Source: Dehalococcoidia bacterium (GTDB lineage Bacteria > Chloroflexota > Dehalococcoidia > Lucifugimonadales > UBA3495). Taken from it: a stretch of DNA of 64,000 nucleotides. Under the pieces are notes generated by a model, which was not told where the DNA came from, made no database searches, and worked only from the letters and a program-made list of their open reading frames with translations. The stretch lies in the NCBI GenBank assembly GCA_965249215.1, contig CBDFLN010000002.1:305180-369179 (forward strand), given 5' to 3'. Shown in pieces: positions 12,915-55,199 of the stretch; position 1 is the stretch's first letter, and the number at the start of each line of letters is the position of its first letter. Made by a program: the position numbers and the translations under genes.

Positions 12915-12934
12915 CGTAGGCCAAGGCGGGCGAG

Positions 12935-27199: not shown

Positions 27200-27367
27200 G
27201 CTAGGGAAGGAATCAAACCCTTAAGGCAAACGGAACCGGTGGAGTCGCGATAGTCGCCCCAGCGTAATGGACGCTGTGAAGCTTAAAACGGGCGATTGTT
27301 GGTCGGGCTGACCGTACCCCCGAAAACAGTAGCAGTGGCAAAGAGAGTCCTCCGGGTAAAATAGGAC

Positions 27368-27649
27368 ATGGAAGGAGGACTCATGGCACGGAAGAGGTAC
27401 ACCGAGGAGCAGATCATAGCGGTCCTGAACGAGGCGGAGGCAGGGGCCAAGACTGGGGAGTTGTGTCGCAGGCACGGCATGAGCGAGGGCGCCTTCTACA
27501 AGTGGAAGGCCAAGTACGCTGGGCTGACGCTGAACGAGTTGAAGAGGCTGAGGTCCCTTGAGGAAGAGAACCGGCGTCTTAAGCAGATTGTGGCCCAGCA
27601 GGCGTTGGACAACTGGTCTCTTAAGGAGTTGCTGGCAAAAAACTTCTGA
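27368..27649 (+). CDS. IS3-family transposase OrfA (HTH)
   Basis: ..MARKRYTEEQIIAVLNEAEAGAKTGELCRRHGMSEGAFYKWKAKY.. plus a leucine-zipper-like C-terminus. The likely start is ATG 27383. Confidence 0.9.
   Translation: MEGGLMARKRYTEEQIIAVLNEAEAGAKTGELCRRHGMSEGAFYKWKAKYAGLTLNELKRLRSLEEENRRLKQIVAQQALDNWSLKELLAKNF
27637..27643 (+). promoter_or_regulatory. Programmed -1 frameshift slippery site (A AAA AAC) joining orfA and orfB
   Basis: An A6C run lies just before the orfA stop. orfB is in the -1 frame relative to orfA, as in IS3-family elements. Confidence 0.7.
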
Positions 27650-27657
27650 AGCCCAAG

Positions 27658-28473
27658 GTGAAGAAGCTGGCAGCGGCATATGCCACAGAAAGCCTTGGGC
27701 TGAGTGAGAGAAGGGCCTGTCTGCTTACCGGCGTCTCGCCCTCGGTCTACCGGTACCAGCCGAAGCAGGGTGATGATGATGTCCTGCGCCTGAGAATGCG
27801 TGAGTTGGCAGGGGAGAGGAAGCGCTTCGGCAGTCCCAGGTTGCACATCATGCTGAAGAGGGAAGGCCTGGTGATCAATCACAAGCGTACAGAGCGCATC
27901 TACAGTGAAGAGGGCCTTGCGCTCAGGAAGAAGAGAAGGCGCAAGGGCGCGGCAAGGGCCAGGGAGACCGTTCCATCCCCGGTGCGCCCTAACCAGAGGT
28001 GGTCCATGGACTTTGTCTCGGATAACACTGTGATCGGTCGGCGCTTCCGGGCATTGGCCATAGTGGATGACTACTCCCGGGAGTGCCCAGCCATCGAGGT
28101 AGATACTTCCTTGGGAGGCGCCAGAGTAGTGGGCGTCCTGGAGAGGCTGGCAGAGACATGGGGACTACCTGAGGTGATCACTGTGGACAACGGTCCGGAA
28201 TTCGCAGGCAAGGCCATGGATGAGTGGGCATATCGGAGGGGCATCAAGTTGAGCTTTATCCGCCCCGGCCGGCCGGTAGAGAACGCCTTTGCTGAGAGCT
28301 TCAACGGCCGGCTGCGCGACGAATGCTTGAACATCAACTGGTTCATGAGCGTGAGGCATGCCAGGGAGATCATAGAAACCTGGCGGCAGGACTACAACGA
28401 GGTCAGACCCCACAGCTCTCTGAAAGGCAAAACACCCAAAGAGTTTGCTGACTCAATGGCCGGACTCTCCTAG
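27658..28473 (+). CDS. IS3-family transposase OrfB (rve / DDE integrase core)
   Basis: WSMDFV..D, ITVDNGPEF and RPHSSL motifs. Confidence 0.9.
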   Translation: MKKLAAAYATESLGLSERRACLLTGVSPSVYRYQPKQGDDDVLRLRMRELAGERKRFGSPRLHIMLKREGLVINHKRTERIYSEEGLALRKKRRRKGAARARETVPSPVRPNQRWSMDFVSDNTVIGRRFRALAIVDDYSRECPAIEVDTSLGGARVVGVLERLAETWGLPEVITVDNGPEFAGKAMDEWAYRRGIKLSFIRPGRPVENAFAESFNGRLRDECLNINWFMSVRHAREIIETWRQDYNEVRPHSSLKGKTPKEFADSMAGLS

Positions 28474-28935
28474 CCAGTGATACTAATTCCGGGGTAAGGT
28501 CAGGGCCCAAATCTACGCTATCGTCCAGGTGAACACCCGTCCCAAAACCGGGTTTCCAAAAGAACGCAAAAAGGAAATCATGGGGTACCGATGGCCAGCG
28601 AGGAACATAGCTGGGGCGCACCGAGGGTTGCACCGGCGGCCAGTGTACAGGTTCCAATTTCCCGGACTGAAAGGTAATGTCTGAAAAGACGGGTTTTTCT
28701 ACCCCCTCTGGTGTCCCATTGTCGCTGACGGCCTACACAATGGGGCAGCTTCAGGGGTAGAAAACCCTCACTATGTACCTGTCCAGTTTCCTGGGTCCAC
28801 CTCGGTCCATGGTATCGTTCCTTTCAGGTTGTTTCCAACATCCCTACTGAAGTATGATTCGTGAGGCCAACACAGAGGGTAGCGCCAAGCGTCACATACT
28901 CCCTGGCCTCCTGTCTTTCAAGGAGAAGAAAGTTC

Positions 28936-31900
28936 ATGCCAATCAGAAACCGCGACGACGCGGTCGAAGTTGAAAATCGCATCCGGCGTATCTTCTCCGC
29001 CTCGGCGGATGAGCGGGTTGCCGCGATTAGGGCCTTGTTCGTCGAGGAACTGGACTTTGCCCCAGCGTCCGGACATGTGGACCTCACCGGCGCGCCGGGT
29101 AATGCCGAGCTTCCATCCTCCGCCCAACGCGTCGCTGAGCTGGACGGGGTCCAGGTGGTGTACGTTGCGCTGGACACACCGGAGACGAGCCGCGTGCGAA
29201 AAGGGGAGGCCTTTGCTGCAGTCAAGAAGGTTTCGGACCAACTCGCCGGAGACCTGCTCTTGGTCTTCACCAACACCTCAGGAAGCCAGCTTCACCTGAT
29301 CCAGCCCAGCTACGAGGGTACGCGGCCGACGCTGCGCCGCATGGTCGTAGAGCGCGACCTGCCACAGCGCACGGCGGTGCAGCAGGTTTCCAGCATCTAC
29401 TGGAACCACCAAGACAGCGGCAGCATCCGATCGGCGCTAGACAAGGCCTTCGACGTCGAGGCGGTCACCAAGGCGTTCTTCCAGGAGTACAAGCGGGTGT
29501 TCGACTTAGCGATGGACAGCGTCGAGGGTTTCGGCAAGGATGAGGAGGAACTGGAAAACAAGAAGTTGTTCGTCCAGACGCTTTTCAACCGCCTGATGTT
29601 CGTCTATTTCTTGTCGCGGAAGGGGTGGCTCGCTTTCAAGGGCGACAAGGACTATCTCGCCGCCCTGTGGCGCGACTATGGTTCCGATTCCAGCCAGACC
29701 AATTTCTACGAGAATAGGCTGGCCCTCGTCTTTTTCGTCGGGCTGAACAATCCCCAGTCTCGTGACCTGATGCGGGATAACCCTGTGATGTACGGTCTTA
29801 TCGGCGACGTGCCGTTTCTCAACGGTGGGCTGTTCGATAAGACCAACCTCGACAGGGTTACCGTGCCGGATGAGGCCGTCAAGCCTATCCTGAACGACTT
29901 GTTCGACCGCTTCAACTTCACCGTGCTGGAGTCGACGCCCTTCGATGTCGAGGTGGCGGTGGACCCGGAGATGCTGGGAAAGGTCTTCGAGGAACTGGTC
30001 ACGGGCAGGCACGACACGGGCTCCTACTACACGCCGCGTCCTGTCGTCTCATTCATGTGCCGGGAGGCTTTGAAAGGCTACCTGGCCAGCTGCAACACCG
30101 GACTAACGTCTAACAGCATCACCAACTTTGTGGATGAGAGGGACACGTCGGGCATCTCGCTTGCCTCGGCCCCCAAAGTGGCCGAGGCCCTGGACGCGGT
30201 GACCGTGGTCGACCCCGCGTGCGGCTCGGGCGCGTACCTGCTGGGAATGATGCAGGAACTCATCGACCTGCAGACCGCTTTGTTCAACGTCGGGGTGGAC
30301 CCCAAAGGGTTGTACGATCTGAAGCTGCACATCATCGAGCGCAACCTATACGGCGTGGATATCGACGAGTTCGCCGTGAACATCGCCATGCTGCGGCTGT
30401 GGCTTTCCCTGGCCATCGAGTACGAGGGCGAACACCCACAGCCCCTACCTAACCTCGACTTCAAGGTCCTCTGCGGCGACAGTCTGCTGGGGCCAGACCC
30501 CAGCGCCGGTGTGGAAGTCCAAGGTACGCTGGGGTACAACGTGGAGCAAGTAAAGCAGTTGGGCCGGCTAAAGGCCGACTATATGCGGGCATCGCTGGGT
30601 CCCGACAAAGAACGCTTGCGCAAGGAAATCCAGGAGACCGAGGCTGGCGTCAGGGAGGCGTTTGGAGCAGCCGGTGATGATCAAGGCACGCTGAACTGGC
30701 GGGTAGAGTTTGCGGAGGTGTTTGCGCAGCGGCGAGGATTCGACATCGCCATCGCAAACCCGCCGTACGTGCAATTGCAAAACAACGAAGGCTTGCTGGC
30801 CAACAAGTACAAGGATATGGGCTACAGTACTCTCACTCGCACCGGTGATGTCTACCAACTGTTCTACGAGCGAGGCTGCCAAGTGCTCAAGCCTGTCGAT
30901 GGGCTGTTGGCTTATATTACCTCCAATAGTTGGCTGAAGGCGGAATACGGCAAGAGCACCCGCAGGTACTTCTCCGAAGGCCACACACCCCTGCGGCTGC
31001 TGGAACTGGGCAAGGACGTGTTCGATTCAGCCATCGTGGATTCCGGGGTATTGGTGCTGAAGACGGGGGGAGCGGGCGACGTTTTCCCCGGCGTGGACAT
31101 GGAGAGTTTGAACGTCAGGGAAATCCCGCCTCCCGAGCACCTGTGGGGGCGGGTGAGGCCCGAGGGCGACGCTCCGTGGAGTATCCTGTCGGCCTTGGAG
31201 CAAAGCGTGCTGTACAAGATGCGGTCTGTGGGCAAGGCACTGGCGGAGTGGGACGTCCGGATCAACCGCGGCATCCTGACCGGCTACAACAAGGCTTTCA
31301 TCATCGATACAGCGACCAGAGATGCGCTGGTGGATACGGACCCGAAGTCCGCGGAGATCATCAAGCCTATCCTAAAGGGGCGGGCCATCCGGCGCTACCG
31401 GGCGAAATGGGAGGGCCAGTGGTTGGTCGCGACCCACAACGGATACGGAGATGTCGAGAGCATCAACATCAATAGCTACCCAGCGGTTAAGGCACATCTG
31501 GTGCAATTCTACCCCCAGCTTGAAAGGCGGCAGGACAGGGGCAGCACTCCGTACAACCTGCGTCACTGCGTCTACTACCATGAGTTCGCCAAAGAAAAGC
31601 TTTTTTGGATTGAGTTGGTTGACAACGGGAGATTCGCTTACGACAACAGCGGCATATACGGAGAAGCGACTACCTTTGTGATGACTGGCGAGGGGCTCAA
31701 ATTTTTGTGCGCCGTTTTGAACTCCCCGCTAATCCGCTGGTTCTTAAGGCAAGTAGCTCCTACCTCCGGCATGGGCACACTGCGCTGGAAAAAGGTCTAC
31801 GTCGAAACCATTCCCATCCCCAAGATTCCTTCCGACGAGCAACGCCCATTCATTGAGCTCGTGGACCGCATCCTGGATGCCAAGGACGCCGACGCCGGGG

Positions 31901-32001
31901 CGGACACCAGCGAATTGGAGGCGGAGGTCGATGGGCTGGTGAATGGATTGTACGGGCTCAATAGAGAGGAGATCAAGGCGGTCGAGGGGCGGTTGGGATG
32001 A
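28936..32001 (+). CDS. Eco57I/PglX/DrmMI-like N6-adenine DNA methyltransferase with TaqI-type C-terminal specificity region
   Basis: Motif I VVDPACGSGAYLL, motif IV IANPPYV, and a C-terminal RGILTGYNKAFII. AAGGAGAAG RBS lies before ATG 28936. No clear PD-(D/E)xK triad is seen in the N-terminal region. Confidence 0.85.
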   Translation: MPIRNRDDAVEVENRIRRIFSASADERVAAIRALFVEELDFAPASGHVDLTGAPGNAELPSSAQRVAELDGVQVVYVALDTPETSRVRKGEAFAAVKKVSDQLAGDLLLVFTNTSGSQLHLIQPSYEGTRPTLRRMVVERDLPQRTAVQQVSSIYWNHQDSGSIRSALDKAFDVEAVTKAFFQEYKRVFDLAMDSVEGFGKDEEELENKKLFVQTLFNRLMFVYFLSRKGWLAFKGDKDYLAALWRDYGSDSSQTNFYENRLALVFFVGLNNPQSRDLMRDNPVMYGLIGDVPFLNGGLFDKTNLDRVTVPDEAVKPILNDLFDRFNFTVLESTPFDVEVAVDPEMLGKVFEELVTGRHDTGSYYTPRPVVSFMCREALKGYLASCNTGLTSNSITNFVDERDTSGISLASAPKVAEALDAVTVVDPACGSGAYLLGMMQELIDLQTALFNVGVDPKGLYDLKLHIIERNLYGVDIDEFAVNIAMLRLWLSLAIEYEGEHPQPLPNLDFKVLCGDSLLGPDPSAGVEVQGTLGYNVEQVKQLGRLKADYMRASLGPDKERLRKEIQETEAGVREAFGAAGDDQGTLNWRVEFAEVFAQRRGFDIAIANPPYVQLQNNEGLLANKYKDMGYSTLTRTGDVYQLFYERGCQVLKPVDGLLAYITSNSWLKAEYGKSTRRYFSEGHTPLRLLELGKDVFDSAIVDSGVLVLKTGGAGDVFPGVDMESLNVREIPPPEHLWGRVRPEGDAPWSILSALEQSVLYKMRSVGKALAEWDVRINRGILTGYNKAFIIDTATRDALVDTDPKSAEIIKPILKGRAIRRYRAKWEGQWLVATHNGYGDVESININSYPAVKAHLVQFYPQLERRQDRGSTPYNLRHCVYYHEFAKEKLFWIELVDNGRFAYDNSGIYGEATTFVMTGEGLKFLCAVLNSPLIRWFLRQVAPTSGMGTLRWKKVYVETIPIPKIPSDEQRPFIELVDRILDAKDADAGADTSELEAEVDGLVNGLYGLNREEIKAVEGRLG

Positions 32002-32021
32002 CTATCACTCAGGAGGCAGTC

Positions 32022-32255
32022 ATGGGAGCCAGGATGCCCGCAGTAGGAGAGGTGCTTATCCACCGGTTCCGGAAACGACCAGGTGAAGTCCAAGCCAAAG
32101 TGGTCAACGTCGACCCGAAGCGCCGGTCCGTCCGGGTACGAGTGGAAGGCAAGGAGTACGCCTCCCTGTCGGCAGCAGCCAAGGCCGTAGCGGGCATCAG
32201 CCAGAACGGTTGGGTGTACTGGGGCCTCAAGAAGCAGGTGGCGCGGCGAACGTAG
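32022..32255 (+). CDS. Small DUF2924/DUF4357-like protein
   Basis: ..EGKEYASLSAAAKAVAGISQNGWVYWGLK signature. AGGAGG RBS lies before ATG 32022. The frame is also open from ATG 31998, which overlaps the methyltransferase stop (ATGA). Confidence 0.5.
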   Translation: MGARMPAVGEVLIHRFRKRPGEVQAKVVNVDPKRRSVRVRVEGKEYASLSAAAKAVAGISQNGWVYWGLKKQVARRT

Positions 32256-32266
32256 AAGGCATTGTC

Positions 32267-33370
32267 ATGCCTGACTGGACGCTGCACGAATGGCTAGTAG
32301 TTATCATCCCTGCTGGAGCAGCGGTGATTGCTATGATGACACTTATAGCTGCGCTCCTCGCTTGGCGTAGACCACGGCGTCCCAGGAGTGATCCCAGCAG
32401 GGAAATCAAGAGGTATGAGGCATACCACGGCAAAGAATATCCTGCAATCCACGCGACTAGCGGCGTTCCCACCCTCTCGCAGTTGACGGATGGCGTGGAC
32501 TTGGACGCCAGGAGGTTAGGTCTCGCGCGACGCCTCTATGAAAGCGGGTTTGCGCAGTTCAACCATTACGTCAATAACAGGGACGGGATGATAGAGGAGT
32601 CCCGTGGCCAGATGGCCCGTCTGGTCGGCGGTCTCGGAGAGACAGAGATATCTAAGGCCGAAAGCGTAGGGACATCGCTCGCGGTGATTGAAGATTGTGA
32701 GCAAGGAGAGGCGGACCAGTCACAGTACAAGCACTTTTCTCCCCAGGCTCAAATCTATGCGCAACATAAGCGGCGAGAGACAGAAGCGATCAGGAGCATA
32801 GCGCGCGATCTGGAGACAAACACTCCCCGAACTGATTACACGTCAGTAAAAGCGCGGATAGCGTCGGGAAACGTGAGACTGGACTCAATAATGAGCGAGC
32901 TTCCTATTGCCTGGCAAGATATCAGAACTCTCAACGAAAAGGCCGAAAGACCGAAATTAAACGGCAGGCCGCCCAAACGCGAATTACTTCATCTCATACT
33001 TATGACGAGAGATCAAGGGGAATTGGAGGACAAACGCGCCGAGAAGGACGGCAACTGGATAATAAGCAACAAGCACGAAATTATGGTCCCAAACCAAGCT
33101 CCAGTTCCAACGTTTGTGCACTTAAAAGAGGGTGCCCCTCCGGTTCGGAAGAGCGAAGCGGTAGTCGTCACTCATGACCAAGGCAGTCAATGGGAAACCG
33201 AGTTCTGGAGGAAGGGCGGACGCCTGGATCAGGTGTACCTGCGCGCCAAGAGCGGTAGAGATCCAGAGCAACTTTGGAGGGCTTACCGAAGGCGACTGGT
33301 CAACAGAGCCGCGTGGGTAGTGTGCGGCGCTTTGCTGATAGGGGACATTATCTTGTTTTTCAGATTATGA
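32267..33370 (+). CDS. Two-pass membrane protein with a long charged central region, function unknown
   Basis: 367 aa. Hydrophobic helices occur at the N-terminus (VVIIPAGAAVIAMMTLIAALLAW) and the C-terminus (AAWVVCGALLIGDIILFF). I recognise no family. Confidence 0.55.
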   Translation: MPDWTLHEWLVVIIPAGAAVIAMMTLIAALLAWRRPRRPRSDPSREIKRYEAYHGKEYPAIHATSGVPTLSQLTDGVDLDARRLGLARRLYESGFAQFNHYVNNRDGMIEESRGQMARLVGGLGETEISKAESVGTSLAVIEDCEQGEADQSQYKHFSPQAQIYAQHKRRETEAIRSIARDLETNTPRTDYTSVKARIASGNVRLDSIMSELPIAWQDIRTLNEKAERPKLNGRPPKRELLHLILMTRDQGELEDKRAEKDGNWIISNKHEIMVPNQAPVPTFVHLKEGAPPVRKSEAVVVTHDQGSQWETEFWRKGGRLDQVYLRAKSGRDPEQLWRAYRRRLVNRAAWVVCGALLIGDIILFFRL

Positions 33371-33396
33371 CGTCTGATGGGTACAGGAGATATTGT

Positions 33397-33678
33397 ATGA
33401 AAGCTAATTTTGATGACAGATACAACAACTCGGCCCGTACACCGTTGGAGGTCTTTGACCTGGTGGAGGGAGCGGCGGTGACGGTATCAGTGAAGAAGGC
33501 TTCCGCAGTCGTATCTGACTGGAAGGCGGCGCCGAGGCTAGGACTGGCTGCCATCGTGGAGAGGATCACAGAAATCCATAATTCAATGCCGCCAGATGCG
33601 TGGGACGATCTTCCCACTGACCTGACGACGACCAAGAAGCACTACCGTTACGGCCGTCCAATTGAGTCCCTGAATTGA
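33397..33678 (+). CDS. Small soluble protein, function unknown
   Basis: 93 aa from ATG 33397, with an AGGAGA RBS. The frame is also open from ATG 33367, which overlaps the upstream stop (ATGA). Confidence 0.45.
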   Translation: MKANFDDRYNNSARTPLEVFDLVEGAAVTVSVKKASAVVSDWKAAPRLGLAAIVERITEIHNSMPPDAWDDLPTDLTTTKKHYRYGRPIESLN

Positions 33679-33709
33679 CGTCAATCAGGTAAACGGATAG
33701 GCTTGAGGC

Positions 33710-34522
33710 ATGGAGGTATGTCCCGCTTTTATTGACGAAACCGGAATTCTGTCCGGTCCCCCACAGCAGCAACCAGTCTATGGGATTGGGGTTCTGGTTA
33801 TCCCCGACACCACGGCCATTACGGATAGTTTGTACCGCCTGCATTTTAACTTTAGCGCCGACCGAATGAAGCAACGTCAGGAGTTGCGTAAGGAGATTCA
33901 GTCTCGGGTCGAACCAACGACATTGTTGGAAGTGGACCGGCTGATGCACTCGACGCGCCACCATGAGTACAAGTTCACAGAGGTTACTCGCTTCAACCTT
34001 CAGCAGTACATCGATTTGCTGAATCTGTATTTTGCGTTCCCGCAACCCGCGTTTCACGCGGTGTTGATGAACCGTCTAGACCCCGACTATAGCTTGTATC
34101 GGTGGAATGGCGATGTATGGAACGCCTATGCTCACCTGACCCTTGACCTGCTGGAGCGACGCGTGGACCGGGATGTTTTCGCTATAGTGGACTTACAAGG
34201 TAAGCCGGACTATTCACCGGTGTATCTGGAGGAACTTCTTTGCACGGCGCCAACCGTCAAGGGCTGTCTCCGGGCGACGTCCGATATGTCCGTCTATTTG
34301 CAACTGGTGGACGTGCTGCTGGGCTGTGTTCAGTTCGATTGGAAAGACGCTAACGGCTTCTACGGCGCGGGGTCGCGCCGGGCGACGGAGAAACGAGAAC
34401 TGGTGAACTTTGTTAAAAGCCGATTGGGGCTTCGGCCTAAAGAGAGGTTTTTGGACGGCGATAACGCATCCAGGGAATGGGAATCGCCTTCCAGATTTAC
34501 AGTTTATCGTGGCGCTTGGTAG
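33710..34522 (+). CDS. DUF3800-family protein
   Basis: 270 aa. The N-terminal AFIDETG motif is characteristic of DUF3800. Confidence 0.65.
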   Translation: MEVCPAFIDETGILSGPPQQQPVYGIGVLVIPDTTAITDSLYRLHFNFSADRMKQRQELRKEIQSRVEPTTLLEVDRLMHSTRHHEYKFTEVTRFNLQQYIDLLNLYFAFPQPAFHAVLMNRLDPDYSLYRWNGDVWNAYAHLTLDLLERRVDRDVFAIVDLQGKPDYSPVYLEELLCTAPTVKGCLRATSDMSVYLQLVDVLLGCVQFDWKDANGFYGAGSRRATEKRELVNFVKSRLGLRPKERFLDGDNASREWESPSRFTVYRGAW

Positions 34523-34707
34523 ACCGCTGGGCCACACAAAGGGAGGCACGGCTATGTCCGGCGTCCATCCCTGAAGCGGGACAACGTTGCCCGGCCACTC
34601 CGTGCTTACTTCACCAGCGTAACGATCAATATTCGTAATGTCAATAGACAGCAGTGAATGGCGGAGCCTCTCTTCCGACCTAGTCTAGATTTTGCAAGAG
34701 TAACATT

Positions 34708-37700
34708 GTGCCTCCAAGTAATATTCTCCACGCCACCACCGATCCGACGCTGCTGACCCGGCTGAAGGAGATGCTGGGCAGTTCCGCCAGGGCGGACATA
34801 GCCGTCGGCTACTTCTTCATCAGCGGGTTCGAGGCGGTGGCCGACGACCTGGCGCGGCTGGGCAAGGTGCGCATCCTGGTGGGGCGCACCGACCGGCAGG
34901 TGCTGGAGGAGGTGGCCGTGGGGCTACAACAGCACCAGGCCCTGCAAGCCCGGCTGGACGCGGACGCCCTGGTGCGGCGCAGCCAGCGAAGCGAGATAGC
35001 CCAGGAGACCGTTGCCCGGGTGGCAGAGGGCGTGGCCGTGCTCCCCCAGGAGAAGGCGACGGAAGCAGCGGTGTCCAAGCTGCGGGACATGGTGGCCCTG
35101 GGCAAGGTGGAGGTGCGGGCTTACCTGCGAAGTCCCCTACACGCCAAGGCGTACCTGTGCTGGTACGACAACCACGCCGAACCCGGAGCGGCGGTGGTCG
35201 GATCGTCCAATCTCACGCTGGCCGGGTTCACCGGCAACACCGAGCTCAACGTACGCGTCACCGGAGATGGGGAAATGGCCGCGTTGCGGGACTGGTTCGA
35301 TGACCTGTGGGGAGACTCGGAGGACATCGGCGCGGCCCTGGTAACGGAGCTGGAGCGGTCGTGGGCCCTGGCCAAGACGCCGCCATACCACGTCTATTTG
35401 AAAGCCCTCTACGAGCTTTACTACACCGATGTCGGCGGCGGGCAGCTGACAGTCCCGCCGCGCGACCGGGAACTGGCCAACTTTCAGGTGGACGCTGTGC
35501 GCCGGGGACTGACCATGATAGAGACCCACGGAGGTTGCTACGTCGGCGACGTGGTGGGGCTGGGCAAGACGTTCATCGGGGCGGAATTGCTGCGCCAGCT
35601 GCGGATGACCTACCCCAGCGACGGGCCGCCGCTGATTCTTTGCCCCGCCAGGCTGAAGCCCATGTGGGAGGTGTTCAACGAGCGCTTCGCCCTGGGGGCC
35701 GAGGTAGTCTCCCACAGCATGATCGCTGCGCCTGCGGAAGCCGAGTTTGACGAGGAACTGGGCCGCTACGTGGGCGCGGAGCCGTCGAGTCACGGCATTG
35801 TCCTCGAGCAGACATACCGCAACCGCGGGCCGGTGCTGGTGGACGAGGCCCACAATTTCCGCAACATCAACCAGCGTTCCAGAGGGCTAATCGACTACCT
35901 GGAATCTGGCGAGCACAAGCTGATTCTCCTGAGCGCTACGCCGCAGAACCTGGGACCCATGGACATATACCGCCAGCTCCGGCTGTTTCTCCACGACACC
36001 GAGCATGGCATCAACATCGAGCCAATCAGCCTGGAGTCCTATTTCAACAACGCCCAGCGGTGGCTGGCCTATCAAGTGGAGGACGAGAACTACAAGGCGG
36101 AGTACCGTTCGTGGGAGGATTCGAGATCAGCCGCACCGCCGCCTCTACCACCCGCCAAGCCGACAGTCCCCAAGGCGGATATAACCGAAGTGCTGACGCC
36201 CGTGTTCATACGCCGCCGGCGCAAGGACATACGCGACCAGTACGGAGACACGGCGCTGGTGGACGGCAAGCCGGTGCGCTTCCCAGAGCCGGTCCTGGAC
36301 AACGTGGAGTACCGGTTGGACAAGGTGTACGCAAAGGCAGGGTCTCTGGAAGAGTTGCAGACGTTGCTGGGTGAACATCAGGCGGTCCGGTACCGGGCGA
36401 CGGAGTACATAAGCGAGGAGGCCAAGAAGAAGCCGGAATACAGGGACCTCTTCCGAGCAGGGGACAGGATCGCCCGGCTCATGGGGGTATTGCTGCTTAA
36501 GCGATTGGAGTCCAGCATCGAGGCCTTCCGGTCTACATTGAACTCTCTGATATCCAGCAACCGGAACTTCCGCGAGGCCCTGGCCTCCGGCTTCGTTCCC
36601 ATTGGAAGCACGGCGACCCGCCTGCTGGCCGGGCAGTCATTCGACGTGGACGACTTGCTGGAAGTGCTCAAGCAGGAAGAACAGCGCCGCCAGGAAACGG
36701 GCAGTGCGCGTGACAAGCTAGTGCACACGGTGGCCGATTTCCGGGCCGAAGAGTGGATGCAAGACCTGGACGCGGACTATGACGTGCTAAAGGACATCCA
36801 GGGACGCGTCAAGGACATCGGGCCGGAAGATGACGACAAGCTGCGGGCGCTGCGGGGATTCCTGGCGCGGCCTGAAGTGAAGGCGGGGAAAGTCCTGATA
36901 TTCTCCGAGGCTGAGACGACAGTAGAGTATCTCTACCGAGAGCTAAATCCCAAAGGCGAGCAGGCTGAAATCGCTCGGATAACCGGTAACACGAGCCACG
37001 ACGCCGAGAGAATCGTCCAACGGTTCTCCCCAACGTGGAACCTAAAGGAACGCGAGGCCATGCCCGGGCCTGAAATACGGGTGCTACTGGCCACAGACAT
37101 CGTGTCCGAGGGTCAGAACCTTCAGGACTGCGCCTGCGTGTTGAACTATGACCTGCACTGGAATCCAGTCCGCCTCATCCAGCGGTTCGGGCGGGTCGAC
37201 AGGATTGGAACGGAACACGAGGTGATCAACCTCCACAACATGTGGCCAGACGTGGAGGTAGATGCCGAGTTGACGTTGACCGATCGGCTTCACCGGCGCA
37301 TCCAGTCGTTCCACGACCTCATCGGATTGGACAGCAAGCTGCTCTCCGATGCAGAACGGCTGAACGCCAATGCGATGTACCGCATCTACGAAGGTAAGAC
37401 CCTGCCAGAGATGGACGACGGGTTGGACGAGGTGGCCGCGAACCAGCGGGCGATCACGCTGCTGCAGCGCATCCAGGACGAAGACCCGGAATTGTGGCAG
37501 ACCATCACCCGCTTGCCGGACGGCATAAGATCAGCGTTGCAGGCCCGCACCGAACAGCCTTCGGCGCCAAATGACCAATACGCTCAGGGCGTGTTTGCGG
37601 TGGAGGGGGCTCAGGCCCCCCTTATGTCACCATCTGCGATGGCGTCCGTAATTTCCCCGTTCGACGACCCCAAACAGGGAGAAACGCTGGTCTTGATGAG

Positions 37701-38211
37701 CGCCGGAGGCGTGAGAGGCTGCTACGCGGTAGACAGCGGGCTGCAGCCGAGGGCCATTAGCCCGGCGCAATTCATCGCGGCGGCGGAGTGCAGCCCCGAC
37801 ACTCCTGCCCAGCCGTTGCCGGCCGACACGAATGAGCGGGTGATGTGTGTGTTCGAGGCATTCAGGACGGACTTCCAGCGACGGTTGGGCAGGGCTAGAA
37901 GGCCGCGGGACACAAGGGCCCGCCGCTACATCTCACGACACCTCGGCATCGCTATGCGTGAGGCCCGTGAAGACCCGGGATTGGTGAGCCGGATTGAGGT
38001 GCTGAGGCAGATATTCCTGGGCGAGGTGTCGCCACCGGTCGAAAGCGCCCTTGGCGAGATCAGGAATCTCAGGCTAGAGGGCTCCGTGCTTCTAACCCGG
38101 CTTGAGGCCCTCCGGGAGCGGTACCGCCTCAACCCGCCGGACGACGCCGACCGCTCCCAGACCGGGGAGCCGCAGGTTATTCGTATCGTCTGTTCTGATG
38201 GGCTGGTGTGA
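34708..38211 (+). CDS. Phospholipase-D (HKD) nuclease domain fused to an SNF2/SF2 helicase
   Basis: HKD motif HAKAYLCW...VVGSSNLT. Helicase motifs GLGKTFIG, LVDEAHNFRN, LLSATPQN and QRFGRVDRIG. GTG start. Confidence 0.85.
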   Translation: MPPSNILHATTDPTLLTRLKEMLGSSARADIAVGYFFISGFEAVADDLARLGKVRILVGRTDRQVLEEVAVGLQQHQALQARLDADALVRRSQRSEIAQETVARVAEGVAVLPQEKATEAAVSKLRDMVALGKVEVRAYLRSPLHAKAYLCWYDNHAEPGAAVVGSSNLTLAGFTGNTELNVRVTGDGEMAALRDWFDDLWGDSEDIGAALVTELERSWALAKTPPYHVYLKALYELYYTDVGGGQLTVPPRDRELANFQVDAVRRGLTMIETHGGCYVGDVVGLGKTFIGAELLRQLRMTYPSDGPPLILCPARLKPMWEVFNERFALGAEVVSHSMIAAPAEAEFDEELGRYVGAEPSSHGIVLEQTYRNRGPVLVDEAHNFRNINQRSRGLIDYLESGEHKLILLSATPQNLGPMDIYRQLRLFLHDTEHGINIEPISLESYFNNAQRWLAYQVEDENYKAEYRSWEDSRSAAPPPLPPAKPTVPKADITEVLTPVFIRRRRKDIRDQYGDTALVDGKPVRFPEPVLDNVEYRLDKVYAKAGSLEELQTLLGEHQAVRYRATEYISEEAKKKPEYRDLFRAGDRIARLMGVLLLKRLESSIEAFRSTLNSLISSNRNFREALASGFVPIGSTATRLLAGQSFDVDDLLEVLKQEEQRRQETGSARDKLVHTVADFRAEEWMQDLDADYDVLKDIQGRVKDIGPEDDDKLRALRGFLARPEVKAGKVLIFSEAETTVEYLYRELNPKGEQAEIARITGNTSHDAERIVQRFSPTWNLKEREAMPGPEIRVLLATDIVSEGQNLQDCACVLNYDLHWNPVRLIQRFGRVDRIGTEHEVINLHNMWPDVEVDAELTLTDRLHRRIQSFHDLIGLDSKLLSDAERLNANAMYRIYEGKTLPEMDDGLDEVAANQRAITLLQRIQDEDPELWQTITRLPDGIRSALQARTEQPSAPNDQYAQGVFAVEGAQAPLMSPSAMASVISPFDDPKQGETLVLMSAGGVRGCYAVDSGLQPRAISPAQFIAAAECSPDTPAQPLPADTNERVMCVFEAFRTDFQRRLGRARRPRDTRARRYISRHLGIAMREAREDPGLVSRIEVLRQIFLGEVSPPVESALGEIRNLRLEGSVLLTRLEALRERYRLNPPDDADRSQTGEPQVIRIVCSDGLV

Positions 38212-38396: not shown

Positions 38397-40145
38397 ATGT
38401 ACCACCCTGGTGGAACAATCAAAGAGGTGCTGCGGTGCATCGAAAAAAATGAATACGTACTCCCGGCGATCCAGAGGGAGTTCGTCTGGGGTCCCGACAA
38501 AATCTGCGCATTATTCGACAGCTTGATGCAAGGATATCCGTTTGGAGAGTTTCTGTTCTGGAATATTGATGCGGGACATTCTGCGGAGTACAAGTATTAT
38601 GGACTTGTCGTTGATTATCACCAACGGGACGACCCTCATTGTCCCGAGGCCCATATCATGCCGGGAAGGCCGATCACGGCTGTGCTCGACGGTCAGCAAC
38701 GTTTGACTGCTTTTAATATTGGCCTACGCGGTTCAATGGCTGTCAAGCGGCCCTATAAGCGATGGAATAGCCCTGATGCGTTTCCTAGGCGGGTTCTAGC
38801 GCTGGATTTACTGGCGTCGAATGAACCGGATGAGGAAGGCAATCGCTACATTTTCGAGTTCATTGAGGAAGACAGGATTGGACACAAGAATGAACGGCTG
38901 TGGTTCAAAGTTTCGGACATCCTAACGATGCAATCTGGGCCACCCATGCTCAAGTGGTTGACTGAACACAAGCTTGGCGACACGGAATTGAATCTTGCTT
39001 TTGAAAGGCTCGATCGATTGTATCAGGCTGTGCACAACGACCAAACGGTCTGCTACTACGAAGAGAAGAACCAAGACATTGAACACGTACTCAACATATT
39101 CATTCGGCGCAATAGCGGCGGAACGGTTCTCTCTTACTCGGACCTCCTGCTCAGCATAGCCACGTCCCAATGGGAAGAACTGGATGCTCGAAAAGAGGTC
39201 CACCAATTAGTAGACGACCTGAATCGCATCGGGCCAGGTCTTGGCCTAACTAAAGACTTCGTATTGAAAGCCGGCCTGATGCTAACAGACATAGCAAGCG
39301 TCGGATTTCAAGTCCGGAACTTCACCCGGGCGAATATGGCAGTCCTAGAAAAGAATTGGTCCCAGATTAGCTCCGCTTTGATCGAGACGGTCCAATTGGT
39401 AGCGGCGTTCGGGTTTGATAGCAACAGCATCCGAGCCAATAGCGCTCTGTTGCCTATCGCGTACTACATCTACCAACTGGGAGCTCCCTCGGATTTTGAT
39501 GTCCACAGCAGATTTCAAGAGGACCGTCGAGCAATTCGAGGTTGGCTGATACGCTCCATCTTGAAGGCGTCAGGAATTTGGGGAAGTGGGCTGGACACTT
39601 TGCTCACTGCGCTCCGTGACGTTATTCGCAGCACTAACAACGGCCATTTCCCAGCGGTGGAAATGAGACAAGTCATGCACCTACGAGGGAAGGACTTAGA
39701 TTTTTCAAAGGAGGAATTCGAGGACCTTGCCGATATGGCCATCAACGACCGGCGGGTTTTCGCTTTACTGACGCTCGTGTTGCCTTCTATAGACGTACGG
39801 ACCCATCATTTTCATATCGACCACATTTTCCCCAAGAGCCGCTTTACAAAGGCCCAACTTCGCAACGCCGGAGTGGCCGACGAACACCAGGATGCCTATA
39901 GCGACCGCGCCAATCGAATAAGCAATTTGCAACTACTTGAAGGGATTCCAAATGTTGAGAAACGGGCCAAGATGCCGACAGAATGGATGGATGAGCACTT
40001 TACAGACGAACAAGCCCGGCAGCATTACAGCGAATTGTATCTCCTAGGAGAGGTTCCGAAGGAAATAACCAAGTTCATGGACTTTTATGAAGTGCGGAGA
40101 GAGCGGTTACAAGAAAAAATTGGTCAGCTAGTAAATTCCGCTTGA
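38397..40145 (+). CDS. GmrSD-like DUF262/DUF1524 protein (candidate type IV modification-dependent restriction enzyme)
   Basis: DUF262 motifs IQREFVWG and DGQQRLTA. C-terminal His-Me/DUF1524 motif HIDHIFPKS..N.QLL. It is visibly AT-richer than the flanks. Confidence 0.85.
   Translation: MYHPGGTIKEVLRCIEKNEYVLPAIQREFVWGPDKICALFDSLMQGYPFGEFLFWNIDAGHSAEYKYYGLVVDYHQRDDPHCPEAHIMPGRPITAVLDGQQRLTAFNIGLRGSMAVKRPYKRWNSPDAFPRRVLALDLLASNEPDEEGNRYIFEFIEEDRIGHKNERLWFKVSDILTMQSGPPMLKWLTEHKLGDTELNLAFERLDRLYQAVHNDQTVCYYEEKNQDIEHVLNIFIRRNSGGTVLSYSDLLLSIATSQWEELDARKEVHQLVDDLNRIGPGLGLTKDFVLKAGLMLTDIASVGFQVRNFTRANMAVLEKNWSQISSALIETVQLVAAFGFDSNSIRANSALLPIAYYIYQLGAPSDFDVHSRFQEDRRAIRGWLIRSILKASGIWGSGLDTLLTALRDVIRSTNNGHFPAVEMRQVMHLRGKDLDFSKEEFEDLADMAINDRRVFALLTLVLPSIDVRTHHFHIDHIFPKSRFTKAQLRNAGVADEHQDAYSDRANRISNLQLLEGIPNVEKRAKMPTEWMDEHFTDEQARQHYSELYLLGEVPKEITKFMDFYEVRRERLQEKIGQLVNSA

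Positions 40146-53625: not shown

Positions 53626-55199
<1,574 letters not shown>

What the first reader, a model, noticed from the sequence alone, without database searches (positions are those of the whole stretch)
28936..38211. Same-strand cassette: nuclease-less Eco57I/PglX-like methyltransferase, four unknown genes, PLD-SNF2 helicase. Candidate undescribed defence system
Seen: every gene from 28936 to 38211 is on the + strand. Junctions are tight: an ATGA overlap at 31998-32001, a TGA/ATG overlap at 33367-33370, and gaps of 11, 31 and 185 bp. The first gene has gamma-class m6A motifs (VVDPACGSGAYLL, IANPPYV) and a TaqI/Eco57I-type specificity region, but I see no PD-(D/E)xK triad in its N-terminus. 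The last gene fuses one HKD phospholipase-D nuclease motif to a complete SNF2 motor (GLGKT, DEAHNFRN, SATPQN, QRFGRVDRIG). Established: an adenine methyltransferase, an SNF2 helicase and a PLD nuclease are components of class 1 DISARM, and PglX-like methyltransferases are the core of BREX. The obligatory partners of those systems (DrmA and DrmB/DUF1998; PglZ and BrxC) are absent here. Inference: this could be a restriction-like system in which the methyltransferase marks self, the PLD-SNF2 translocase is the effector, and the four wedged genes are system-specific accessories.
Basis: partly seen in the sequence, partly recalled or inferred. Interest (0 to 1): 0.85.

Follow-up and report, generated by a model that had tools for sequence, protein, structure and literature searches.

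The report
Two-gene restriction-like module with embedded cargo
The cassette is probably not one six-gene system: it looks like a widespread but apparently untested two-gene restriction-like pair (a DNA methyltransferase that has lost its nuclease motif, plus a nuclease-motor protein), with unrelated mobile defence or toxin-antitoxin genes inserted between the two.

Summary
Six co-oriented genes lie at 28936-38211. All quoted motifs and junctions are present. No DISARM, BREX or MANTIS partner gene occurs anywhere in the window.

In 67 related Dehalococcoidia loci, only the methyltransferase (52/67) and the PLD-SNF2 protein recur together. The gap between them runs from 4 bp to 6.7 kb and holds different cargo in different loci: PIN/VapC, ParE, DUF4365, Abi_alpha and AAA_15 genes. 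Eleven of eleven distant plasmid homologues (about 27-31% identity, seven phyla, Archaea included) also carry an Eco57I/MmeI-type methyltransferase nearby, again sometimes with embedded toxin or Abi genes.

PLD-SNF2 divergence tracks divergence of methyltransferase residues 1-600 (r=0.81). It does not track the hypervariable target-recognition domain (r=0.07).

The window's middle genes are cargo:
- a small RAMA-like protein;
- a membrane protein;
- an AF2212-like antitoxin that has lost its usual PIN partner;
- a DUF3800 RNase-H-like gene that elsewhere sits beside MmeI-like genes.

The most likely mechanism is a split, Type ISP/III-like, ATP-dependent restriction-modification module. Its closest relatives are MANTIS (Gao_RL), class 1 DISARM and the YeeA-type MmeI homologues noted in 2009. 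I rate it a new variant of a known kind, of moderate interest.

The parts
28936..32001 (+). CORE. Gamma-class N6-adenine DNA methyltransferase of 1021 aa. Layout: nuclease-motif-less N-domain (1-143), MmeI/IIG-type helical spacer (about 144-400), catalytic domain (motif I about 425, NPPY 607-610), hypervariable TaqI_C-type target-recognition domain (about 620-1021).
   Evidence: - Pfam Eco57I, TaqI_C and MmeI_Mtase.
- PADLOC REase_MTase_IIG at 525 bits, but only over 144-1018.
- Residues 1-600 conserved, target-recognition domain variable.
- hhalign to the Rhodococcus MmeI-like partner methyltransferase: probability 97.9, collinear from residue 30.
- AAGGAG Shine-Dalgarno sequence 10 nt upstream of the ATG.
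31998..32255 (+). CARGO or possible accessory. An 85-aa protein whose C-terminus (GKEYASLSAAAKAVAG..NGWVYWG) resembles the DUF4357/DUF2924/RAMA tail. Translationally coupled to the methyltransferase gene (ATGA overlap).
   Evidence: - Weak Pfam hits, all below the gathering thresholds; PADLOC PDC-S14.
- tblastn homologues in only 3 of 67 loci, L011, L014 and L022. Cluster c38 holds the matching ORFs of those loci; the window's own ORF did not join it in the ORF clustering.
- The same tail motif is fused to a different N-terminal region in cluster c68.
32267..33370 (+). CARGO. A 367-aa protein with hydrophobic segments at both ends (probably membrane-spanning) and no family match.
   Evidence: No Pfam, PADLOC or NCBIfam hit. 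Homologues in only 2 related loci, L009 and L014.
33397..33678 (+). CARGO. A 93-aa AF2212-like (VapB-type) antitoxin-like protein. Here it lacks the PIN toxin gene that normally follows it.
   Evidence: - Followed by a PIN gene immediately upstream of the PLD-SNF2 gene in 21 loci.
- 48% identical (E 5e-24) to a PF01954 AF2212-like protein that precedes DUF3800 in L079.
- No PIN homologue in the window.
33710..34522 (+). CARGO. DUF3800 protein of 270 aa, with the N-terminal IDETG and C-terminal QLVD motifs. The family is RNase-H2-like and is also the effector of type VII retrons.
   Evidence: - Pfam DUF3800 at 1.6e-4; PADLOC PDC-M04A at 6e-9.
- Absent from all 67 related loci.
- Elsewhere it lies directly 3' of MmeI-like genes (L081-84, L087/88), 5' of an Eco57I-like gene (L090), next to McrBC (L085), or among housekeeping genes (L089). 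L079 repeats the AF2212-like, DUF3800, PLD-SNF2 order.
- Family description: PMC7736814.
34708..38211 (+). CORE. PLD(HKD)-Swi2/Snf2 protein of 1167 aa. Layout: a single HKD nuclease motif (about 15-205), the SNF2 translocase (about 255-890), and a conserved C-terminal region of unknown fold (about 890-1167, ending in the invariant IVCSD).
   Evidence: - Pfam PLDc_2, SNF2-rel_dom and Helicase_C.
- PADLOC C3a139 'HKD+Snf2' at 207 bits and DrmD at 118 bits.
- NCBIfam DrmD at 148 bits and phospholipD_antiphage at 142 bits, both far below their cut-offs.
- Catalytic residues invariant.
- Foldseek matches SWR1, Chd1, CSB and RapA at E 1e-12 to 1e-8.
- 1459 50%-identity clusters at E<=1e-30.
38397..40145 (+). 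NEIGHBOUR, not part of the pair. BrxU-like GmrSD (DUF262 + DUF1524) Type IV restriction enzyme, an independent single-gene defence.
   Evidence: - Pfam GmrSD_N and GmrSD_C; PADLOC HEC-05 at 698 bits.
- HEC-05 is BrxU according to Payne et al. 2024.
- Present downstream of the PLD-SNF2 gene in only 2 of 67 loci.
27309..28502 (+). FLANK. IS3-family insertion sequence (orfA 27368-27649, orfB 27658-28473). Its 55-nt left end is repeated at 40166-40220.
   Evidence: Pfam HTH_Tnp_1 and rve; repeat D2 at 95% identity.
40166..40220 (+). FLANK. A solo copy of the IS3 left end, in the same orientation as the intact element. The stretch from the methyltransferase gene to the GmrSD gene is therefore bracketed by IS ends.

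Best explanation
The functional unit is a two-gene, ATP-dependent, restriction-modification-like module.

(1) The methyltransferase recognises a short sequence, probably asymmetric, through its C-terminal TaqI/MmeI-type target-recognition domain. It methylates adenine to mark host DNA. Its N-terminal domain sits where MmeI/Type IIG enzymes carry their PD-ExK nuclease, but it has lost the catalytic triad. I infer that it now serves as a docking or coupling domain.

(2) The PLD-SNF2 protein has no recognisable DNA-specificity domain. I infer that the methyltransferase recruits or licenses it at unmodified sites, that it translocates on dsDNA by ATP hydrolysis, and that it cuts with a PLD active site built from two HKD halves (a dimer, as in BfiI, SauUSI and MtsD). 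In function this is a Type ISP enzyme split into two polypeptides, with PLD in place of Mrr. Equally, it is a MANTIS effector (MtsD) working with a self-sufficient MmeI-like methyltransferase and no AAA+ loader.

(3) The four genes between the two core genes, and the GmrSD gene downstream, are independent mobile cargo (toxin-antitoxin or defence genes). They sit in a spot that tolerates insertions, the 'embedding' pattern described for Hma, BREX and Type I restriction-modification loci.

Shown here: the domain content, the conserved catalytic residues, the pairing across phyla, the co-divergence, the variability of the target-recognition domain and the variability of the cargo.

Inferred: a physical interaction between the two proteins, dependence of cleavage on the methyltransferase, hemimethylation, and the cleavage mechanism.
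For: - Pairing in relatives. A strong methyltransferase HMM hit lies upstream of the PLD-SNF2 gene in 52/67 Dehalococcoidia loci. The gap is 4 bp (L066) and 63 bp (L061) at one end and 6.7 kb at the other.
- Pairing in distant taxa. 11/11 plasmid homologues examined carry an Eco57I/MmeI-type methyltransferase adjacent or within about 4 kb, in either gene order. They come from Pelobacter, Rhodococcus, Gordonia, Pseudarthrobacter, Thermus, Picosynechococcus, Anabaena, Microcystis, Thermococcus, Halorussus and Haloferax. No DUF499-sized ATPase is annotated beside them.
- Co-divergence. Pairwise identity of PLD-SNF2 against methyltransferase residues 1-600 gives r=0.81 (Mantel test, 0 of 2000 permutations reach it). 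Against the target-recognition domain r=0.07. Example: L005 versus L040 is 95% / 89% / 13%.
- Catalytic motifs of both proteins are invariant.
- The methyltransferase N-domain lacks a triad and lacks any IIG-nuclease profile match. It aligns collinearly with the N-domain of the Rhodococcus MmeI-like partner, in which Pfam finds MmeI_hel, Mtase, TRD and C but not MmeI_N.
- The motor is of Swi2/Snf2 type.
- Cargo varies between loci: PIN, ParE, DUF4365, DUF2806/Abi_alpha and AAA_15; AbiE, VapC and nucleotidyltransferase + SLATT on plasmids.
- Intact PLD-SNF2 genes with no methyltransferase, among housekeeping genes in L032 and L038, fit an effector that is harmless without its targeting partner.
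- Precedents: Morgan 2009; MANTIS MtsD is a PLD-SF2 dimer that needs the methyltransferase complex for restriction.
Against: - No experiment of any kind, and no methylome.
- No interaction prediction could be run. The PLD-SNF2 model is of low confidence (pLDDT 67, pTM 0.40).
- The methyltransferase N-domain has an alpha-beta-beta-beta-alpha-beta-type topology and gives weak, non-significant Hjc-like Foldseek hits. It keeps conserved polar residues (D106, N113, Q118, H120), so a non-canonical nuclease is not excluded.
- The methyltransferase lies on the opposite strand in 3 loci (L002, L003, L054). The gaps of several kilobases show that co-transcription is not required.
- Three intact PLD-SNF2 genes lack a methyltransferase within 10 kb.
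- The C-terminal 280 residues of PLD-SNF2 are unexplained and could be a DNA reader of their own.
- In MANTIS and BREX the methyltransferase needs an AAA+ partner. Whether this one works alone is unknown.
- Co-divergence can also arise from simple linkage.
Confidence: 0.62

Rival explanations
1. One reading: a single six-gene defence system in which the four middle genes are obligatory, system-specific accessories.
For: - Same strand, tight junctions, and an ATGA coupling between the methyltransferase gene and gene 2.
- The same coupling of a gene 2 homologue is seen in L014.
- Gene 2 carries a tail like a methylase-associated (RAMA/DUF4357) domain.
- DUF3800 recurs next to MmeI/Eco57I-type genes and next to a PLD-SNF2 gene in L079.
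Against: - None of the four genes is conserved with the pair. By tblastn, gene 2 is in 3 of 67 loci, gene 3 in 2, gene 4 in about 24 (21 of them as a gene 4 + PIN pair immediately upstream of the PLD-SNF2 gene), and DUF3800 in 0.
- The two core genes are directly adjacent in L066, L061, Pelobacter, Rhodococcus, Haloferax and Pseudarthrobacter.
- The same slot holds unrelated toxin-antitoxin or Abi genes in other loci.
Confidence: 0.06
2. Two independent elements that merely travel together. PLD-SNF2 would be an autonomous single-protein nuclease-translocase, either SauUSI-like Type IV (modification-dependent) or Hna-like, using its unexplained C-terminal region as a DNA reader. The methyltransferase would be an orphan or regulatory enzyme.
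For: - Intact PLD-SNF2 genes without a methyltransferase in L019, L032 and L038.
- The architecture parallels SauUSI and MtsD.
- The conserved C-terminal 280 residues have no assigned function.
- The methyltransferase is on the opposite strand in 3 loci.
- The family was first noticed only as a neighbour of type III CRISPR loci (C3a139).
Against: - 52/67 and 11/11 co-occurrence across seven phyla.
- Co-divergence with methyltransferase residues 1-600 (r=0.81) but not with the target-recognition domain.
- A modification-dependent nuclease linked to an active adenine methyltransferase would risk attacking its own host.
- No DUF3427 or other known reader domain was detected.
Confidence: 0.15
3. 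The methyltransferase is a complete, self-contained Type IIG/IIL restriction-modification enzyme with a non-canonical N-terminal nuclease. PLD-SNF2 would be an auxiliary or backup effector.
For: - PADLOC would label the protein REase_MTase_IIG (525 bits).
- The N-domain has a restriction-endonuclease-like strand/helix order and gives weak Hjc hits.
- Conserved D106, Q118 and H120.
- Auxiliary or backup nucleases are common around BREX-like loci (PMC12839542).
Against: - The IIG profiles match only residues 144-1018, not the nuclease part.
- No conserved D...(D/E)xK.
- Pfam MmeI_N is not detected here or in the Rhodococcus partner methyltransferase, but it is detected in the stand-alone MmeI-like genes of the same phylum (L081, L082).
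- Foldseek finds no significant nuclease match.
Confidence: 0.08
4. Not a defence system: an epigenetic or DNA-repair/remodelling pair, an SNF2 remodeller with a regulatory methyltransferase.
For: SNF2 proteins such as RapA have housekeeping roles. RapA is the best solved-structure sequence hit.
Against: - The window's copy lies on an integrase-bearing island between ogg and dinG, flanked by IS elements and followed by BrxU.
- Plasmid-borne in many taxa.
- Hypervariable target-recognition domain, with recombinase-linked cassettes in relatives.
- Fused PLD nuclease with conserved catalytic residues.
- Patchy distribution.
Confidence: 0.04

Closest known systems
MANTIS / Gao_RL / Type-2 DUF499-centred BREX-related system (MtsA-D)
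   Same: - The effector has the same architecture: an N-terminal single-HKD PLD nuclease fused to an SF2 helicase-like ATPase (called Swi2/Snf2-family in PMC12839542). In MANTIS it is a dimer with one shared PLD site.
[quoted passage not shown]
- Restriction-modification-like logic, with a hypervariable target-recognition domain.
- Sources: PMC12839542; bioRxiv 10.64898/2026.09.23.753747.
   Different: - No DUF499 AAA+ loader (MtsA) and no DUF3780 (MtsB) in the window or in the related loci.
- The methyltransferase here is gamma-class Eco57I/MmeI-type with a C-terminal TaqI_C target-recognition domain, not the DUF1156-type BR methyltransferase.
- The PLD-SNF2 protein scores only 142 bits against NCBIfam NF042964 (cut-off 1100). 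It is about 270 residues longer, with an extra conserved C-terminal region.
Class 1 DISARM (DrmA, DrmB, DrmC, DrmD, DrmMI)
   Same: It contains the same three activities: a PLD nuclease (DrmC), an SNF2 helicase (DrmD) and an Eco57I-type adenine methyltransferase (DrmMI). The window's proteins cross-hit DrmD (118-148 bits), DrmC and DrmMI (96 bits).
   Different: - The defining DrmA (YprA-type helicase) and DrmB (DUF1998) are absent.
- PLD and SNF2 are fused into one protein.
- All scores fall far below the NCBIfam equivalog cut-offs.
YeeA-type MmeI homologues lacking the PD-ExK motif and flanked by a helicase (Morgan et al. 2009, PMC2731913)
   Same: - The methyltransferase is of the same kind: MmeI-like, with the nuclease motif lost.
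- A helicase gene is genetically linked to it.
- The same hypothesis was proposed: the N-domain docks a separate helicase/nuclease, and modification is on one strand only.
   Different: - In YeeABC the helicase (YeeB, DEAD-type) and the nuclease (YeeC, GIY-YIG) are separate proteins. Here a single PLD-SNF2 polypeptide provides both functions.
- I found no report of an experimental test of either arrangement.
Type ISP restriction-modification enzymes (LlaGI, LlaBIII)
   Same: The same set of modules: a nuclease, an ATP-driven dsDNA translocase, a gamma-class adenine methyltransferase and a target-recognition domain. The likely behaviour is also the same: an asymmetric site, one-strand methylation, and translocation followed by collision and cleavage.
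   Different: - Type ISP enzymes are a single polypeptide with an Mrr (PD-QxK) nuclease and a Type I-like helicase.
- Here the modules are split over two genes, with a PLD nuclease and a Swi2/Snf2 motor.
SauUSI (Type IV) and the CglI/NgoAVII-type ATP-dependent PLD enzymes
   Same: A PLD nuclease coupled to an SF2 ATPase. Cleavage uses a dimeric, single PLD site.
   Different: - SauUSI targets modified DNA through its own DUF3427 target-recognition domain and has no methyltransferase partner.
- In CglI/NgoAVII the PLD nuclease and the ATPase are separate subunits and the methyltransferase is a C5-cytosine enzyme (the methyltransferase class is from my own knowledge, not checked here).
- No such reader domain was detected in the window's protein.

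Membership tests
Class 1 DISARM | DrmA (YprA-family helicase) present | tested here: not met
   PADLOC and NCBIfam scans of the six cassette proteins and the other scanned ORFs of at least 300 aa in the window (most of them). The only DrmA match is a helicase-domain cross-hit of the PLD-SNF2 protein itself, at 58 bits.
Class 1 DISARM | DrmB (DUF1998) present | tested here: not met
   No DUF1998 or DrmB hit in any scanned protein.
Class 1 DISARM | DrmD, DrmC and DrmMI at family level | tested here: inconclusive
   - DrmD: 118 bits (PADLOC) and 148.5 bits (NCBIfam, cut-off 610).
- DrmC: E 4e-6 on the PLD domain.
- DrmMI: 96 bits.
These are homologous domains, not equivalogs.
BREX (types 1-6) | PglZ phosphatase and BrxC/PglY ATPase present | tested here: not met
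   No hit in the scanned window ORFs and no recurrent large ATPase in the 67 loci.
BREX (types 1-6) | PglX-family methyltransferase | tested here: not met
   NCBIfam BREX_1_MTaseX scores 78 bits against a cut-off of 500. The PADLOC PglX models score 65 bits or less, against 525 bits for a Type IIG model.
MANTIS / Gao_RL / Type-2 BR | DUF499 AAA+ ATPase (MtsA) | tested here: not met
   No DUF499 hit. Among ORFs of at least 300 aa in the window, only the two core proteins exceed 1000 aa. None is annotated beside the 11 plasmid pairs.
MANTIS / Gao_RL / Type-2 BR | DUF3780 protein (MtsB), reported in 98% of taxa | tested here: not met
   Pfam scans of genes 2-5 give no DUF3780 hit.
MANTIS / Gao_RL / Type-2 BR | DUF1156-type N6-methyltransferase (MtsC) | tested here: not met
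   The methyltransferase is Eco57I/MmeI_Mtase + TaqI_C, gamma-class.
MANTIS / Gao_RL / Type-2 BR | N-terminal HKD nuclease fused to a Swi2/Snf2 helicase (MtsD) | tested here: inconclusive
   The architecture is met. At family level, NF042964 scores 142 bits against a cut-off of 1100, and PADLOC PLD_Helicase scores 88 bits.
Type IIG / IIL (MmeI-like) restriction-modification enzyme | N-terminal PD-(D/E)xK nuclease domain | tested here: not met
   - Residues 1-143 match no IIG profile.
- No conserved triad.
- No MmeI_N hit.
- Foldseek gives nothing better than E=0.02.
A non-canonical active site is not formally excluded.
Type IIG / IIL (MmeI-like) restriction-modification enzyme | Helical spacer, gamma-class methyltransferase and C-terminal target-recognition domain | tested here: met
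   (NGGLF spacer motif aligned to MmeI).
Type ISP restriction-modification enzyme | Single polypeptide: Mrr nuclease, helicase, methyltransferase, target-recognition domain | tested here: not met
   Two separate genes 2.7 kb apart, with a PLD nuclease rather than Mrr.
SauUSI-like Type IV enzyme | C-terminal DUF3427 modified-base reader, and no cognate methyltransferase | tested here: not met
   No Pfam or PADLOC hit in residues 891-1167. A methyltransferase is linked in 52/67 loci.
VapBC-type toxin-antitoxin (gene 4) | Antitoxin followed by a PIN toxin | tested here: not met
   Gene 4 homologues precede a PIN gene in 21 loci, but the window has no PIN gene; DUF3800 occupies that position. Gene 4 is homologous to a PF01954 (AF2212-like) protein.
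BrxU / GmrSD Type IV enzyme (neighbour at 38397-40145) | DUF262 (GmrSD_N) plus DUF1524 (GmrSD_C) in one protein | tested here: met
   Pfam GmrSD_N at 4.7e-28 and GmrSD_C at 9e-4. PADLOC HEC-05 at 698 bits over the full length.

The most novel reading that the evidence does not exclude
The pair represents a distinct, minimal class of ATP-dependent restriction-modification system. A nuclease-dead MmeI/Eco57I-like methyltransferase (the 'Mod-like' part) would guide a PLD-Swi2/Snf2 translocase-nuclease (the 'Res-like' part) with no AAA+ loader. The class would be spread across Bacteria and Archaea, would never have been tested, and would act as a preferred landing pad for embedded defence genes. 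One of those embedded modules would be a mobile AF2212-like + DUF3800 pair that is itself a new toxin-antitoxin-like defence.
Probability: 0.4. Interest if true: 0.6.

Novelty: new variant of a known kind. Interest (0 to 1): 0.45.

Why it matters
- If the two genes are sufficient, this is the simplest known setting for a PLD-helicase restriction effector. In MANTIS, nuclease activity of the related MtsD could not be reconstituted and needs a four-protein context. A two-protein version with a self-targeting MmeI-like methyltransferase could make the coupling between site recognition, translocation and PLD cleavage directly testable.
- It would settle a suggestion made in 2009: that MmeI homologues without a nuclease motif work through a linked helicase and nuclease.
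- It shows that a co-oriented, tightly spaced cassette can be a composite. Annotation pipelines would call the methyltransferase a complete Type IIG enzyme and leave the effector unnamed or tagged as a CRISPR-neighbour cluster (C3a139).
- The variable slot between the two genes is a ready source of candidate defence genes by 'guilt by embedding'.

Tried and rejected
- Complete named system. PADLOC, NCBIfam and Pfam found no DISARM, BREX or MANTIS partner, so this was rejected.
- C3a139 as a named defence system. It turned out to be only a cluster of type III CRISPR neighbours from Shah et al. 2019.
- Fold of the methyltransferase N-domain. The model is good (pLDDT 82) but Foldseek against PDB found nothing significant. 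The recurring Hjc hits have E of 0.09 or worse. A profile search of PDB sequences did not align the N-domain to MmeI.
- Fold of PLD-SNF2. The model has low confidence (pLDDT 67). Foldseek confirms only the SNF2 motor. SauUSI is not in the top 50, and the C-terminal region stays unassigned.
- Promoter and terminator scan of the cassette: uninformative, with counts close to the shuffled controls.
- tRNA or att site for the island: no tRNA in the window. The only long direct repeat is the IS3 end.
- Rfam DUF3800-associated RNA motifs around gene 5: none.
- Middle genes as conserved accessories: rejected by the neighbourhood analysis.
- Literature searches for a named two-gene PLD-SNF2 + methyltransferase system found none. 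The library does not cover subscription journals or REBASE.
- The homologue search with the methyltransferase N-terminus returned mostly shorter proteins of 270-735 aa. I did not establish why. Gene fragments from short contigs or frameshifted assemblies are likely.

Full report
OBSERVATION. The window comes from a Dehalococcoidia-like (Chloroflexota) genome: all 67 related genome loci are from that group or close relatives. The six ORFs at 28936-38211 are real and all on the + strand.

Junctions read from the sequence:
- ATGA overlap at 31998-32001;
- 11-bp gap before 32267;
- 31-bp gap before 33710;
- 185-bp gap before the GTG at 34708.

The ATGA at 33367-33370 exists. Gene 4 more likely starts at 33397, which has an AGGAG 7 nt upstream and is where homologues begin to align.

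The methyltransferase has motif I (DPACGSG), then NPPY, then a C-terminal TaqI_C target-recognition domain, which is the gamma-class order. The last gene has H145-x-K147...GSSN168 and all the SNF2 motifs, invariant in 66 homologues.

CONTEXT. The cassette lies on an island of lower GC content, about 15-43 kb in the window.
- A tyrosine integrase sits at 41867-43054(-), next to dinG. At the left end are a PrimPol-like gene and ogg.
- An IS1380-like element and an IS3-family element lie just upstream of the methyltransferase gene.
- The 55-nt left end of the IS3 is repeated after the downstream GmrSD gene, at 27309-27363 and 40166-40220.
- The gene at 38397-40145 is a BrxU-type GmrSD enzyme (PADLOC HEC-05, 698 bits; HEC-05 is BrxU).

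WHAT RECURS. With the PLD-SNF2 protein as query I collected 67 genome loci with 10-kb flanks. I analysed them by tblastn, by clustering of their ORFs, and with a methyltransferase HMM.
- Only two gene families recur: PLD-SNF2 itself and the methyltransferase, which gives strong hits in 52/67 loci.
- The methyltransferase is always upstream. It is on the opposite strand in three loci.
- Most loci without it have a truncated PLD-SNF2 gene or too little flanking sequence. Three intact copies (L019, L032, L038) lack it, two of them among housekeeping genes.
- The gap between the two genes runs from 4 bp (L066) and 63 bp (L061) to 6.7 kb.

What fills that gap differs from locus to locus:
- PIN/VapC toxins, ParE, DUF4365, DUF2806/Abi_alpha and AAA_15 ATPases;
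- further clusters that by sequence inspection alone look like XRE/ImmA-type regulators and a nucleotidyltransferase plus patatin pair (not scanned against Pfam).

Nothing downstream of the PLD-SNF2 gene is conserved.

The window's middle genes are rare in these loci by tblastn:
- Gene 2 is in 3 loci and gene 3 in 2.
- DUF3800 is in none.
- Gene 4 is in about 24 loci. In 21 of them it forms a gene 4 + PIN pair immediately upstream of the PLD-SNF2 gene.

BEYOND CHLOROFLEXOTA. tblastn against plasmids found full-length homologues at about 27-31% identity. I inspected eleven, from Desulfuromonadia, Actinomycetota, Deinococcota, Cyanobacteriota, Halobacteria and Thermococci.
- All eleven carry a large 'DNA methyltransferase' adjacent or within about 4 kb, in either gene order.
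- Seven of these methyltransferases were scanned and all are Eco57I/MmeI-type.
- The Rhodococcus one has MmeI_hel, MmeI_Mtase, MmeI_TRD and MmeI_C but no MmeI_N.
- Cargo is embedded there as well: AbiE in Thermococcus, VapC in Picosynechococcus, and nucleotidyltransferase + SLATT in Microcystis.
- No DUF499-sized ATPase is annotated in any of them.

The PLD-SNF2 family is large: 1459 50%-identity clusters at E<=1e-30.

CO-EVOLUTION. Among 40 loci (39 related loci plus the window) where both genes are full length, pairwise identity of PLD-SNF2 correlates with that of methyltransferase residues 1-600. The correlation is r=0.81, and 0 of 2000 Mantel permutations reach it. It does not correlate with the target-recognition domain (r=0.07). 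Mean identities are 73%, 64% and 33% respectively. For example, L005 versus L040 is 95% / 89% / 13%.

In several relatives a tyrosine recombinase and an inverted partial target-recognition-domain cassette lie next to the methyltransferase gene, with inverted repeats of about 170 nt. This looks like a specificity shufflon. Conserved catalytic and adaptor parts combined with a swapped specificity domain are the signature of restriction-modification.

THE METHYLTRANSFERASE N-TERMINUS.
- PADLOC Type IIG profiles match residues 144-1018 strongly, but nothing matches 1-143, where those profiles have their nuclease.
- The conserved residues contain no D...(D/E)xK.
- The AlphaFold model of residues 1-420 is confident (pLDDT 82). 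Its N-domain is mixed alpha/beta, with an order of helices and strands like that of restriction endonucleases.
- Foldseek finds nothing significant, only weak Hjc-type hits at E of 0.09 or worse.
- hhalign aligns the domain collinearly with the N-domain of the Rhodococcus MmeI-like partner (probability 97.9; 'LFVEELxF/W' and 'LVxFTN' motifs).

I conclude it is most likely a degenerate MmeI-type nuclease domain reused as an adaptor. A non-canonical active site (D106, Q118, H120) is not excluded.

THE EFFECTOR.
- The best sequence matches among solved structures are to RapA.
- The structural matches are SWR1, Chd1, CSB and RapA (on a low-confidence model).
- The motor is therefore a true Swi2/Snf2 translocase.
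- The PLD domain has one HKD motif, so an active site needs a dimer. This follows from established PLD enzymology and holds for BfiI, SauUSI and MtsD.
- Residues 890-1167 are conserved but unassigned.

THE MIDDLE GENES.
- Gene 2 (85 aa) has a tail like DUF4357/RAMA, with weak hits only.
- Gene 3 is a probable membrane protein with no matches.
- Gene 4 is homologous to an AF2212-like antitoxin-type protein. In relatives it is followed by a PIN gene. In the window the PIN gene is absent and DUF3800 takes its place.
- DUF3800 is an RNase-H2-like family known as a type VII retron effector.

Close homologues of gene 5 occur in several settings:
- behind an AF2212-like gene and in front of a PLD-SNF2 gene that is only 55% identical to the window's (L079);
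- directly 3' of stand-alone MmeI-like enzymes, in at least two separate genomic contexts;
- 5' of an Eco57I-like gene;
- beside McrBC;
- among housekeeping genes.

Gene 4 + gene 5 therefore looks like a mobile module with a liking for restriction-modification neighbourhoods, not a part specific to this pair.

COMPARISON WITH KNOWN SYSTEMS.
- MANTIS/Gao_RL (Type-2 BREX-related) has the same kind of effector (HKD + SF2) and a specificity-giving adenine methyltransferase. It is defined by a DUF499 AAA+ loader, a DUF3780 protein and a DUF1156-type methyltransferase. All three are absent here.
- Class 1 DISARM has the same three activities, but DrmA and DrmB are absent here.
- BREX needs PglZ and BrxC, which are absent.
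- Type ISP enzymes have the same modules in one chain, with an Mrr nuclease.
- Morgan et al. 2009 already noted MmeI homologues without the nuclease motif that are flanked by a helicase (YeeA/YeeB/YeeC) and proposed the docking-domain idea.
- PADLOC's best model for the effector, C3a139, is only a cluster of type III CRISPR neighbours.
- I found no paper that names or tests the two-gene pair of PLD-SNF2 with an Eco57I/MmeI-type methyltransferase. The library is incomplete and REBASE could not be consulted.

VERDICT.
- The finding is real.
- The unit is two genes, not six. The four wedged genes and the GmrSD gene are embedded or neighbouring cargo.
- It is a new variant of a known kind: a split Type ISP-like or loader-less MANTIS-like restriction-modification module. 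It is widespread, and I found no report of an experimental test.
- Interest is moderate (0.45).

Noticed in passing
window 27309-27363 and 40166-40220: A 55-nt direct repeat at 95% identity. It is the left terminal repeat of the IS3-family element at 27309-28502, plus a solo copy just after the GmrSD gene. The whole stretch from the methyltransferase gene through PLD-SNF2 to GmrSD is therefore bracketed by IS ends in the same orientation. This may be a trace of IS-mediated acquisition or rearrangement.
   Followed up: partly
window 38397-40145: A BrxU-type GmrSD Type IV restriction enzyme (PADLOC HEC-05, 698 bits) lies directly downstream of the PLD-SNF2 gene. DUF262 genes also neighbour the pair on the Rhodococcus and Picosynechococcus plasmids.
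   Followed up: partly
L002:3400-8800, L012:3600-8900, L048:2100-7300 (also L003, L054, L023, L047): Next to the methyltransferase gene lie a tyrosine recombinase (cluster c7) and an inverted, partial target-recognition-domain cassette. Inverted repeats of about 170 nt (about 80% complementary) are separated by about 1.2 kb. This looks like an invertible specificity shufflon for this methyltransferase family. It is absent from the window.
   Followed up: partly
L081-L084, L087/L088, L090 (DUF3800 at 6001-6820 in each): Close homologues of the window's DUF3800 gene sit 70-100 nt downstream of stand-alone MmeI-like (MmeI_N-positive) restriction-modification genes, or just upstream of an Eco57I-like gene, in several Chloroflexota genomes. 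This recurrent link between DUF3800 and gamma-class methyltransferase genes is unexplained.
   Followed up: partly
L079:5698-10424 and window 33397-38211: The order AF2212-like antitoxin-type gene, DUF3800, PLD-SNF2 recurs. DUF3800 is 87% identical but PLD-SNF2 only 55% identical. This suggests that the small two-gene module moves independently and has replaced the usual AF2212-like + PIN pair.
   Followed up: partly
L032 and L038 (PLD-SNF2 at 10001-13500): Intact PLD-SNF2 genes with no methyltransferase within 10 kb lie among housekeeping genes (dnaA, obg, purL, NAPRTase). They are orphan effectors of unknown status.
   Followed up: partly
window 54108-54208 (-): An Rfam group II intron match (RF00029, 63 bits, E 4e-10), outside the island.
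   Followed up: no
window 23284-24405: A DUF5677 gene on the same island. A DUF5677 gene, next to a TIR-domain gene, also lies beside the PLD-SNF2 + methyltransferase pair on Pseudarthrobacter plasmid pACHL02.
   Followed up: no
window 15467-17908: An 813-aa protein with a BT4734-like/PrimPol N-domain (PADLOC RTasVirE-PriCT2 and PrimPol models) lies at the left end of the integrase-bearing island. It is probably the island's replication or mobilisation gene.
   Followed up: no
protein hits P0121-P0240: The best database matches to the methyltransferase N-terminus are mostly 270-735 aa rather than about 1000 aa. Several related loci show the methyltransferase split into two or three ORFs. This could come from frameshifts in long-read assemblies, from real pseudogenes, or from inversion states. 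It was not resolved.
   Followed up: no
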